This document shows positions 19,332-57,995 of a stretch of DNA of 64,000 nucleotides, piece by piece. The stretch lies in contig CP147778.1 in NCBI GenBank assembly GCA_037305845.1, positions 1,632,001-1,696,000 on the forward strand. Direction: 5' to 3'. Under the pieces are notes generated by a model that saw only the letters and a list, made by a program, of their open reading frames with translations, ran no database searches and was not told the DNA's origin. Made by a program: the position numbers and the translations under genes. Source of the DNA: Candidatus Freyarchaeum deiterrae (GTDB lineage Archaea > Asgardarchaeota > Jordiarchaeia > Jordiarchaeales > Jordiarchaeaceae). Each line of letters begins with the position of its first letter. The stretch's first letter is position 1.

Positions 19332-19462
19332 GCCGAGGTAGCTCAGTTGGTAGAGCGTCAGGCTGTTAACTTGATGGTCAAGAGGTCTGTTTAAGATCTC
19401 TCCACAAGCAGGTCCGAGATGATATTGAAGCGTTTCATATCACGGATATCCTGTCCTCGGCG
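19332..19462 (+). tRNA. tRNA-Asn(GTT) with two non-canonical introns (48/49, 59/60)
   Basis: GCCGAGG/CCTCGGC acceptor, TCAGG-CT GTT AA-CTTGA anticodon arm; BHB introns 19380-19407 and 19419-19448. Confidence 0.9.
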
Positions 19463-27621: not shown

Positions 27622-30063
27622 TTAGTCCTCAATCAACTTCCAGAACTCCACATCATCCATAAAGCTCTTACCCACCCGTATACGCGAAGGCCCCGTAACA
27701 TTTTCCAATAATAACTTGCGTTCGATTTTGTCGACCATGCGACGCGAGAACAAAACTGTATCTGGATTTACACTAATGCTGTTAGCTCCTAATCGAACTA
27801 GAAACTCCAAATAATCAGGGTAAACACTGGGGGCCTGTCCACAGATAGAAGTAGTTACTCCGTATTTTTTACATATCTTAATAGTAAATGCTATTGCACG
27901 TAGAACTGCTAAATTACGCTCATCATATATCTCTTGAACACTAGCATCGTTTCTATCTACACCCAGAATTAACATTGTTAAATCGTTAGTACCAAAGCTA
28001 ACTCCATTGATTCCTTCTTGACAGAATTTGTCTATTAATAGTACACAGCTTGGAACCTCAACCATAATCCAGATTTGGAAGTCTGGGTCTACTCCCGGAT
28101 CTAGTCCTTCTTCTTTCATAATCTGTTTTACTTTCCTGAAAACGTCTACTGATTGCACAAAGGGTAGCATTACCCAGAGATTTCTCAGCCCGAATTCTTC
28201 TCTGACTTTTTTTATTGCTCTACATTCAAGTCGAAAAACATCGGGTTCTTTTATGTATCGGAATTGCCCTCTGTATCCTATCATAGGATTGGGGCCTACA
28301 TGCCCCGTTTCTTCCTCGTATTTCCTTCCACCTTCTAAAGCCAAGAATTCATCGGGTTTAAAGTCTAGAAATCTGTACACCACTGGACCTGGGCTGAAGG
28401 CATCGGCGACTTTTCTTACTCCGTCTGCAAATTGGTCTATCATTTCTTGTTCCCCGCCTTCTTCAATGAGTTTTCTTGGGTGTTTCCCTAATGTTATCAT
28501 CAAGTGCTCTGCTCTGAGTAGTCCAACACCATCCGCCTGTGTCTGTTTTGCAACTCTTTCTGCTATTTCAGGCATCGATAAGTTCACGTAGATTTTAGTA
28601 GCTGTAGATGCTGTCGTTGTGCCTACAGGCGCGGCTACGGTTTCTTCTTCCTTTTCGGCTTTTAGAATTCCTCGATATATCAGTCCTTTTCCACCATCAA
28701 CAGTTATTTGCCTCTCGCTTTGTAGAACATTGGTTGCCTTTTTTGTTCCTACTACACAGGGGATTCCGAGTTCTCGGGATACTATTGCCGCGTGGCATGT
28801 GTACCCTCCTTCGTCAGTTACTATCGCGGCTGCTTTTTTCATTACTGGAACCCAATCAGGTGTAGTCATTCTAGTCACTAAAATGTCTCCTTCCTTCAAT
28901 TCTCCTATGTGATTAATGTCTTTAATGACTCTCACCGGGCCAGCTCCTATTCCTGGGGATACGCCTAGTCCCTTAAGTATCATCTCTCGTTCCGTAGTAG
29001 TTTCTGGTTGGTTGGTTTTGGTATTTTTTTTTGCGGGTCCTGTGCTTGAACCATGTACTGTTTCCGGCCTAGATTGAAGTAAGTATATTTCTCCCTTTTG
29101 ATCTACTGCCCACTCGATGTCTTGAGCTGTTTTATAATGTTTTTCGATTTGTTTGCCATACTGGGCTATTCTCTTTATTTCTTCATCTGTTAAGGCTGGG
29201 ATATTTTGTCTTTCCGGAGGGATTTCTAAATGTTCAGTCTTTTCTGTACTAGGGTTTAATGCGTACTCGAGCTTTTTGGTTACAATGTGTTTTTCGACTA
29301 TTTCTAGATTAGATTTGTTCACTACATACGTGTCTGGTGTTACTGCCCCACTTACTACCGCTTCTCCCAGCCCCCAATTAGCTTCTATCATTATTTTTGT
29401 ATTATCCCCCGTTGCTGGGTGAAGTGTAAACATAACTCCCGCTGATTTTGGCTCAACCATAAGTTGAACAGCCACGCTAATGAGGACGTCTTGATGTCTG
29501 AATCCCTTTTCTTCTCTGTAAGTTATGGCTCTTTTTGTAAATAGGCTACTCCAACATTTTTCTACGGCTTCCAGCAACCCTTCTCTATTTTCGTTTAGAA
29601 AGGTCTCCTGCTGTCCTGCAAAAGAAGCGCCTGGCAATAGGGGAAGAATGGTTTAACCCATTACTTTATCCTCTGCGGAGGCGCTCGATCTGACCGCTAC
29701 TAATGGCTCTTTCTCTTTTACTCTCTTAGCTAGTTCGTCATAACTTTTCATTATTGCTTCTTGAATCTCTTCAGGGATTGGTGTAGATTCAATAAGTTGC
29801 CTGATTTTGTTTGATGCTTCTTCAAGTTGTTGGAAGTCTTTAGTGTCGGCTTTTTCAAGTATTTTGAATACTTTATTTTTTATATTTGTGTCTTCTAGGA
29901 ATTTCTTGTAGGCATAGGTAGTAATTGAAAAACCTGGTGGAACTGGGACTTTGGCTTTTGTTATTAGTTCACCCAAATTAGCGTTTTTTCCTCCTACCTT
30001 GGACACGTCTTCCTTTCCTACCTCTTCAAACCATAAGATTAAATCATTTTCATCGCGGCTCAT
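27622..30063 (-). CDS. ppsA: Phosphoenolpyruvate synthase, two exons (30063-29668 and 29637-27622), about 803 aa after splicing
   Basis: VGGKNANLGEL, AVRSSASAED|LPGASFAGQQET, EGGYTCHAAIVSRELG, FGTNDLT; 30-nt BHB insert separates D and L. Confidence 0.92.
29638..29667 (-). other. Putative BHB (tRNA-type) intron in ppsA mRNA
   Basis: AAAGTAATGGGTTAAACCATTCTTCCCCTA; in-frame TAA; folds GCA-GAGG-AT^A-AAGtAATGG/CCATTCTT-CCCC-TA^T-TGC. Confidence 0.85.
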
Positions 30064-30227
30064 ATTCACACCCTTAGCTTTAAGTGTACTATGTCAATTG
30101 ATACAACTTTTTTATTAATGTTTTGTACCTAGGCGATATGAAATGGTTTTTCCAAATTGCTTAATAACTTATATTACTATAAAATAGAATATTAAAAAAT
30201 ATCAAATCATGTTTTCTTTATCTATTT

Positions 30228-57627: not shown

Positions 57628-57995
57628 GGTGGCGAGTCCTGAAGCTCGACATCCCGCACTACCAGCGTATCTGACACCTATTCTCCAATCCGGGATTCTG
57701 GAAGCACCGAGCGTTCAGAGTTAGGTTGCTCCATCAGGGCGCCGACCTAAATTATGCCAGCGTTCTCCCGGGCCTAACCGGTTTCCCTAATGAAGGATAA
57801 ACATACTTTCCCTACGAAAAGCTGTTACCCACCGTCGATCCTCCAGTGCGGATTTTCACTGCCTCGGAGACAGACCGTTTTGGCAGATTGGATATGCCTC
57901 ACATCAGCTTTCGGCCCGCCATATAGAGGATTTGCGGTCGAGAGGAGAACCTCTCTCAGGCAACCCCTATTTGCCCGCCTAGACAAGCCACCACC
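57628..57995 (-). ncRNA. ffs: Signal recognition particle (7S) RNA with an intron in helix 8
   Basis: End-pairing helix 1, Alu domain (ATAGGGG / CCTCTAT loop complementarity), long helix 5, helix 6 GCTTTTC-GTAG-GGAAAGT, helix 8 AGG-CCC-GGGA-G[intron]GG-AGCA; TTTATAT about 25 nt upstream. Confidence 0.9.
57733..57764 (-). other. Putative 32-nt BHB intron in SRP RNA
   Basis: CGGG-AG^A-aCGCTGGC/GTCGGCGc-CCTG-AT^G; removal restores CCC-GGGA-GGG. Confidence 0.85.

What the first reader, a model, noticed from the sequence alone, without database searches (positions are those of the whole stretch)
29638..29667. BHB-type intron in a protein-coding gene (ppsA)
Seen: the two ppsA ORFs are in the same frame and are separated by exactly 30 nt (minus strand AAAGTAATGGGTTAAACCATTCTTCCCCTA) carrying an in-frame TAA. 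Removing them joins ...RSSASAED to LPGASFAGQ..., restoring the conserved PEP synthase motif. The junction folds as a bulge-helix-bulge: exon helix GCA/TGC, central helix GAGG/CCCC (one A.C mismatch), 3-nt bulges AT^A and TA^T, and intron stem AAG-AATGG/CCATT-CTT. Cutting after the second bulge nucleotide gives exactly the junction the protein requires. Known: the archaeal splicing endonuclease EndA cuts BHBs this way, and the textbook archaeal pre-mRNA intron is in crenarchaeal cbf5. Inference: this organism splices a central-metabolism mRNA, and annotation pipelines would miscall the gene as split or a pseudogene.
Basis: partly seen in the sequence, partly recalled or inferred. Interest (0 to 1): 0.95.

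Follow-up and report, generated by a model that had tools for sequence, protein, structure and literature searches.

The report
tRNA-type mini-intron inside Asgard ppsA
The only PEP synthase gene of this Asgard archaeon is interrupted by a 30-base intron of the kind normally cut out of tRNAs; it is one of at least 28 such introns in this genome's protein genes, whereas the papers I could search document this kind of splicing inside a coding sequence for only one archaeal gene family (cbf5).

Summary
Confirmed. A 30-nt stop-containing insert (29667-29638, minus strand) splits the single ppsA of a Freyarchaeum-like Asgard archaeon inside the SAED|LPGASFAG motif. Cutting after the second base of each bulge of the bulge-helix-bulge (BHB) gives an 803-aa PpsA (Pfam positions 113|115). 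All 16 distinct Jordarchaeia copies read carry an insert at this exact site (18-30 nt, frameshifting or stop-bearing, BHB kept); other Asgard families have none. New here: a public contig (SRR28530378) is identical over 15,470 nt to one from a sister run except that exactly these 30 nt are missing. That is the predicted splice product, but I could not learn whether the library is RNA or DNA. The genome holds at least 28 such introns in 24 genes, including cbf5 (at the crenarchaeal site), kae1, ahcY (three), queE (three) and the splicing ligase rtcB, plus a two-subunit EndA with an intact catalytic triad. Weak point: here the central helix has an A.C mismatch and the BHB is not the lowest-energy fold. 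This scan noted the same ppsA intron in another genome, and similar introns in other Asgard genomes, before.

The parts
29668..30063 (-). ppsA exon 1 (132 codons from ATG 30063; an in-frame GTG lies at 30069), ends ...RSSASAED
   Evidence: (PPDK_N 2-113)
29638..29667 (-). 30-nt phase-0 BHB intron with in-frame TAA (29655-29653)
27622..29637 (-). ppsA exon 2 (671 codons plus stop), begins LPGASFAGQ; holds the rest of the ATP-binding domain, the His swivel domain and the PEP-binding domain
29674..29676 (-). exon helix h, 5' arm (GCA); pairs with TGC at 29636-29634
   Evidence: sequence
29670..29673 (-). central helix H, exon arm (GAGG)
   Evidence: sequence; invariant in 16 copies
29667..29669 (-). 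bulge 1 (AT^A); predicted 5' cut between 29668 and 29667
   Evidence: BHB rule; junction seen in contig SRR28530378
29644..29666 (-). intron hairpin h' (AAG-AATGG / CCATT-CTT)
   Evidence: 100% of cells paired, changes on both sides in 2 of 3 pairs
29640..29643 (-). central helix H, intron arm (CCCC here; CCTC in 15 of 16 distinct copies)
29637..29639 (-). bulge 2 (TA^T); predicted 3' cut between 29638 and 29637
   Evidence: BHB rule
29634..29636 (-). exon helix h, 3' arm (TGC)
   Evidence: sequence; invariant

Best explanation
The 30 nt are an intron removed from the ppsA mRNA by the tRNA-splicing machinery. Shown: exon and intron bases together can form a BHB, and removing the intron at the standard cut sites is the only simple way to get a whole PpsA. 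Inferred from established EndA/RtcB biochemistry: the two-subunit splicing endonuclease cuts after the second base of each bulge, RtcB joins the exons, and the intron is released, probably as a circle. Unspliced mRNA stops 4 codons into the intron and gives a 136-aa fragment. The intron entered once, in the ancestor of the Jordarchaeia order, and persists because it sits in an invariant ATP-binding-domain motif where only precise removal is tolerated. It is one of at least 28 such introns in 24 genes of this genome, so mRNA splicing is routine in this lineage. I think it is most likely a tolerated passenger; a regulatory role is possible but untested.
For: (1) Same site in every Jordarchaeia copy with readable sequence: 8 GTDB genomes in two families plus metagenome contigs, 16 distinct sequences, lengths 18, 19, 20, 28, 29 and 30 nt, each frameshifting or stop-bearing. 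(2) The BHB is kept while the loop diverges: 93.7% of cells paired against 44-69% for slid registers; central helix 98.4%; inner helix 100% with A-U to G-C swaps (related sequences inflate the shuffle test). Of 23 chance pattern matches outside ppsA, none combines a 4/4 central helix with a 3/3 inner helix. (3) Contig SRR28530378_33318 encodes an unbroken 802-aa PpsA and equals SRR28530383_6004 at all 15,470 compared bases except the exact 30 nt, with no repeat to explain a collapse. (4) It is the only full ppsA in the genome. (5) Genome scan: at BHB energy <= -8, seven joins at the true geometry against at most one per shifted cut; five pass the stricter filter against 0/1/0/0 and 0 antisense. 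(6) 28 introns in 24 genes restore conserved motifs, with consecutive Pfam positions for kae1 61|64, pcm 59|61, nadE 136|138 and selD 48|49. The cbf5 intron lies in the catalytic Asp codon, the site proven in Crenarchaeota (PMC2738675). (7) Two EndA paralogs; one has Tyr, His+8, Arg+32, Lys+39, the spacing of the triad in PMC5829648.
Against: No library known to be RNA was examined. The library type of SRR28530378 is unknown, and its contig has the same ends as the intron-bearing one and spans genes on both strands, which looks DNA-like. In this genome the central helix has a mismatch and the BHB is 4.6 kcal/mol above the best fold; in relatives it is 0.1-3.2 above. Exon 2 begins with TTG or CTG in all copies. 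No second spliced gene was found (ahcY and porA attempts).
Confidence: 0.93

Rival explanations
1. Split gene: the two ORFs are translated separately (restart at TTG/CTG) and assemble as a two-chain enzyme; the insert is only a spacer.
For: Exon 2 starts with TTG or CTG in all 16 copies; databases call two genes.
Against: The break is inside a conserved motif. The first ORF has no conserved stop (0 to 23 extra residues), and no ribosome-binding site precedes exon 2 in this family. YTG is the Leu codon needed to pair in the exon helix. Only 1 of 28 introns in the genome is followed by a start codon, and 19 fall inside codons. An exactly joined version exists.
Confidence: 0.025
2. Translational recoding (hopping, frameshift or read-through) over a hairpin, without RNA cutting.
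For: The insert is a hairpin; the cbf5 introns were once mistaken for frameshifts (PMC2738675).
Against: Lengths of 18-30 nt span all three frames at one site, so no single recoding event serves all. There are no matched take-off and landing codons (repeat slack 0). The BHB register is what is conserved.
Confidence: 0.015
3. The element is removed from the DNA (excision or precise loss) rather than from the RNA, and the intron-less contig is such a chromosome.
For: The intron-less contig has DNA-like extent and the same ends as its sister. Precise presence/absence exists among relatives for alba and ahcY.
Against: No recombinase site or repeat at the ends. Every other Jordarchaeia copy keeps the insert. 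A one-off loss in that strain would not explain how the others make PpsA. For that contig alone I put RNA origin at about 0.65-0.7 and DNA-level loss at about 0.3.
Confidence: 0.02
4. Pseudogene or assembly error.
For: In-frame stop; metagenome-derived genome.
Against: The same 30 nt occur in an independently assembled run (L075). The site is shared across two families while both halves stay intact at 66-87% identity. It is the only full ppsA in the genome.
Confidence: 0.01

Closest known systems
cbf5 pre-mRNA intron of Crenarchaeota (Desulfurococcales, Sulfolobales; PMC2738675)
   Same: Short BHB intron inside a conserved motif of a coding sequence, cut between the second and third bulge bases by hetero-oligomeric EndA. 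This genome has a cbf5 intron at the same codon position.
   Different: Different gene (central carbon metabolism) and phylum (Asgard). One of at least 28 in the genome, whereas the 2009 paper found no confirmed splicing beyond cbf5 (it cites predictions for other genes that I could not read). cbf5 splicing has cDNA and in vitro proof; this has none yet.
Non-canonical BHB tRNA introns of Freyarchaeia/Jordiarchaeia (PMC11291895; bioRxiv 10.64898/2026.10.13.758758)
   Same: Same lineage, same motif, similar size, same presumed enzymes; repeated gains.
   Different: Those papers report introns in tRNA genes; term searches of their main texts found no mention of introns in protein-coding genes.
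Haloferax volcanii HVO_1309 5' UTR intron (PMC7714728)
   Same: BHB intron in an mRNA, processed by EndA in vitro.
   Different: Lies in an untranslated region, so the reading frame does not depend on it; a single case.
XBP1/HAC1 non-spliceosomal mRNA splicing in eukaryotes (own knowledge, not tested)
   Same: A short frame-breaking intron removed by an endonuclease and joined by a tRNA ligase.
   Different: Uses Ire1 and twin stem-loops, not EndA and a BHB; stress-regulated single target.

Membership tests
Archaeal EndA-spliced BHB intron in a coding sequence (cbf5 type) | Two 3-nt bulges on opposite strands, each 3' of a 4-bp central helix, flanked by exon and intron helices | tested here: met
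   Geometry present; 3 of 4 central pairs here (relaxed form), 4 of 4 in 15 of 16 distinct copies
Archaeal EndA-spliced BHB intron in a coding sequence (cbf5 type) | Cutting after the second base of each bulge restores the conserved protein exactly | tested here: met
   holds for inserts of six lengths
Archaeal EndA-spliced BHB intron in a coding sequence (cbf5 type) | The BHB is the preferred fold of the precursor | tested here: inconclusive
   4.6 kcal/mol above the minimum here, 0.1-3.2 in relatives
Archaeal EndA-spliced BHB intron in a coding sequence (cbf5 type) | Host encodes a two-subunit EndA with the catalytic triad, and RtcB | tested here: met
   Two paralogs, triad spacing; rtcB present but itself intron-split
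Archaeal EndA-spliced BHB intron in a coding sequence (cbf5 type) | Spliced transcript observed | tested here: inconclusive
   Exact junction in contig SRR28530378_33318 of a relative; library type unknown
Archaeal EndA-spliced BHB intron in a coding sequence (cbf5 type) | Cleavage by EndA in vitro; circular excised intron | not testable with these tools
   Needs bench work or raw reads
Group I / group II self-splicing intron | Ribozyme core of hundreds of bases | tested here: not met
   30 nt; no Rfam match at this site
Split gene (two polypeptides) | Conserved stop for part 1 and independent start signals for part 2 | tested here: not met
   Stop position varies by 0-23 codons; no SD-like match in this family

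The most novel reading that the evidence does not exclude
In Jordarchaeia (Asgard), EndA/RtcB splicing of protein-coding mRNAs is a genome-wide, obligatory step for dozens of housekeeping genes, including genes with three introns and the RtcB ligase itself. Introns are still being gained, and contig SRR28530378_33318 is a direct record of a spliced non-cbf5 archaeal coding sequence.
Probability: 0.65. Interest if true: 0.93.

Novelty: new variant of a known kind. Interest (0 to 1): 0.87.

Why it matters
Archaeal coding sequences are treated as intron-free apart from cbf5. A lineage among the closest prokaryotic relatives of eukaryotes that splices at least two dozen mRNAs would show that intron-rich protein genes can exist without a spliceosome, and would make intron gain and loss directly testable at genus scale. 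It also corrects annotation: PpsA, RtcB, Kae1, Cbf5, GatE, TyrS, NadE and others are read as truncated or broken in these genomes. Metatranscriptomes from the soil that yielded the Freyarchaeia genome already exist (PMC11291895), so the test is cheap.

Tried and rejected
Unconstrained folding of the junction alone was not significant. Relaxed genome scans without the exon helix, or for introns of 40-420 nt, showed no overall enrichment over shifted-cut controls. I accepted only candidates that restore a recognisable conserved motif, so 28 is a curated lower bound, not a statistical census. Rejected as ordinary gene junctions or continuous coding: porA-porB at G000 735531, uvrA-uvrC at 564482, 335264, 784578, 2038429, 1322242, 1499513 and others. 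A search of JGI metagenome contigs for the junction with a 0-30 nt gap found five intron-bearing copies and no joined one. A second spliced gene was not found: full-length AhcY hits came from intron-less Jordarchaeales, and 392-aa PorA proteins were wrong-frame gene calls. The run accession was not found in papers or in one paper's supplements. A phylum-wide pattern search of 301 genomes showed this insert only in Jordarchaeia among the 30 loci examined; that is 'not found', not absent. The codon tally was faulty (lazy match) and is not used. Genomes G002 and G008 gave no ppsA match, and G010 has an assembly gap inside the intron. PMC3064391 could not be read.

Full report
Observation. The minus strand reads ...TCC GCA GAG GAT, then 30 nt (29667-29638) with an in-frame TAA, then TTG CCA GGC GCT.... 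The two ORFs are in one frame. They match Pfam PPDK_N at positions 2-113 and 115-324. Joined, they give 803 aa from ATG 30063 that align end to end with intact Asgard PpsA. It is the only full-length ppsA in the genome. Taken alone the fold is weak: the A.C mismatch lets a slipped register win by 4.6 kcal/mol, and the short-window z-score is -0.52.

Organism. The genome is one contig of 3,576,204 bases with 40.7% G+C. Named relatives of its PpsA are Freyarchaeota and Jordarchaeales. This fits the complete 3.58 Mbp Freyarchaeia genome of PMC11291895; the identification is my inference. That paper reports introns in 92-95% of tRNA genes, and my term search of its text found no mention of coding introns.

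Conservation. All eight genomes of the order with readable sequence here, in two families, have an insert at the same codon boundary; eight genomes of other Asgard families have none. With metagenome contigs there are 16 distinct copies of 18, 19, 20, 28, 29 or 30 nt, each frameshifting or containing a stop. The loop diverges freely while the pairing is kept: 93.7% of cells paired against 44-69% in slid registers, the central helix GAGG/CCTC perfect in 15 of 16, and the inner helix 100% paired with A-U to G-C swaps. Related sequences inflate these counts, but chance matches to the flanking pattern elsewhere do not show the full motif. The 13 closest database proteins are 666-671 aa fragments, against 810-813 aa in Baldrarchaeia.

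An exactly joined copy. One cluster member is 802 aa. Its contig, SRR28530378_33318 (15,894 nt), is identical at all 15,470 compared positions to SRR28530383_6004 (15,924 nt) once the 30-nt intron is removed at the two BHB cut sites. No repeat could cause a collapse. If that run contains RNA, this is a spliced mRNA. If it is DNA, it is a precise loss in an otherwise identical strain, which still confirms the boundaries. I could not find the library type. The shared contig ends and the coverage of both strands argue for caution; I put RNA origin at about two in three.

A genome-wide set. A scan for BHBs whose removal joins two coding frames gave seven hits at energy <= -8, against at most one for each frame-shifted cut; with a stricter filter the counts were 5 against 0/1/0/0, and 0 antisense. 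Looser scans were not enriched overall, so I kept only cases that restore a conserved motif. Adding leads from earlier scan notes that I re-checked, the list is 28 introns in 24 genes: ppsA, cbf5, an HD hydrolase, leuC/hacA, kae1, pcm, porA, ahcY (3), rtcB, a YchF/Obg-type GTPase, alba, selD, an EndoQ-family gene, tyrS, gatE, a ferredoxin, moaE, nadE, hdrC, mvhD, fadH, hypD, queE (3) and one hypothetical gene. 23 have a 4/4 central helix; phases are 9, 13 and 6; only ppsA has a start codon after the intron. Pfam positions run on across the junctions of kae1, pcm, nadE and selD. The cbf5, kae1, rtcB, porA, alba and ahcY-2 introns recur in relatives, in the first five with varying loops and kept helices. 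The cbf5 intron lies after the first base of the catalytic Asp codon, where PMC2738675 places the crenarchaeal one.

Machinery. The genome has two EndA paralogs. One has Tyr, His+8, Arg+32 and Lys+39, the spacing given for the M. kandleri catalytic subunit, and PMC5829648 reports that Asgard EndA is two-subunit with the loop tied to relaxed substrates. A tRNA-Asn gene in this window carries a perfect 30-nt BHB insert in its T loop, which suggests the enzyme handles non-canonical sites.

Mechanism. Shown: geometry, frame restoration, conservation, the enzymes' genes, and an exactly joined sequence. Inferred: EndA cuts, RtcB ligates, the intron is released, and unspliced mRNA yields a 136-aa fragment. 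The intron probably arose once at the base of the order and is retained because only precise removal is tolerated in this motif. Split-gene, recoding, DNA-excision and pseudogene readings each fail on the variable lengths, the missing start signals or the conservation.

Against the literature. PMC7714728 (2020) names cbf5 as the only earlier mRNA case and adds one 5' UTR intron. PMC2738675 mentions unconfirmed predictions in other genes. Searches for Asgard mRNA introns returned nothing on point; most subscription journals are not in the library. Earlier notes of this scan describe the same ppsA intron in another genome and similar introns in Loki-, Baldr- and Jordarchaeia; they are leads, not independent proof.

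Verdict. A real BHB intron, very probably spliced from the mRNA (0.93). It works like the cbf5 intron and meets every membership feature I could test except two that are inconclusive. The variant is new in scope: many genes, several introns per gene, an Asgard host. Interest 0.87.

Noticed in passing
G000:C1 1877066-1876203 (-), loci L056/L125: ahcY has three BHB introns of 56, 29 and 191 nt. The 56- and 191-nt ones are absent from all five same-genus genomes, so they are recent gains. They share similar ends (CCAYATG...CATRTGG). The 191-nt one is a long imperfect hairpin (-62 kcal/mol) with no Rfam match and no second copy.
   Followed up: partly
G000:C1 1877011-1877066 and 2337531-2337558: Two introns are flanked by a 6-base direct repeat whose first four bases are self-pairing (CCGGAA, GCGTAA). 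A hairpin inserted with a target-site duplication at such a site would create a BHB at once, a possible route of intron birth.
   Followed up: no
G000:C1 1452796-1452824 (-), L107: rtcB, the presumed splicing ligase, carries its own 29-30 nt intron at the PD|AH motif in all six genomes of the genus and in none of four from the sister family; a possible feedback loop.
   Followed up: partly
G000:C1 1483415-1483446 (-), L048: cbf5 intron at the crenarchaeal position in both Jordarchaeia families but not in five other Asgard genomes: shared ancestry with losses, transfer, or repeated gain at one site.
   Followed up: partly
L200 (G011) and L190-L199: The kae1 intron (13-29 nt) occurs across the order and also in a genome of another Asgard family at the same site.
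   Followed up: partly
window 19332-19460 (+): tRNA-Asn(GTT) missed by ARAGORN, with a perfect 30-nt BHB insert at 19419-19448 in the T loop and a second insertion of roughly 25-30 nt in the variable region whose ends I did not fix.
   Followed up: partly
window 57630-57990 (-): Archaeal SRP RNA match, about 45 nt longer than the 317-position model; not checked for an insert.
   Followed up: no
G000:C1 about 2278900-2278950 (+), L121: rps26e is frameshifted by a short insert between its cysteine motifs; my strict BHB test did not fix the boundaries, so it is not counted.
   Followed up: partly
G000:C1 1294242-1294272 (-), 1819939 (+), 2701648 (+): Further strong BHB-shaped hairpins that join coding frames in genes I could not identify; not counted.
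   Followed up: no
L168-L172: The alba intron is present in G006, G010 and G009 but precisely absent in G007 and G008 of the same family.
   Followed up: partly
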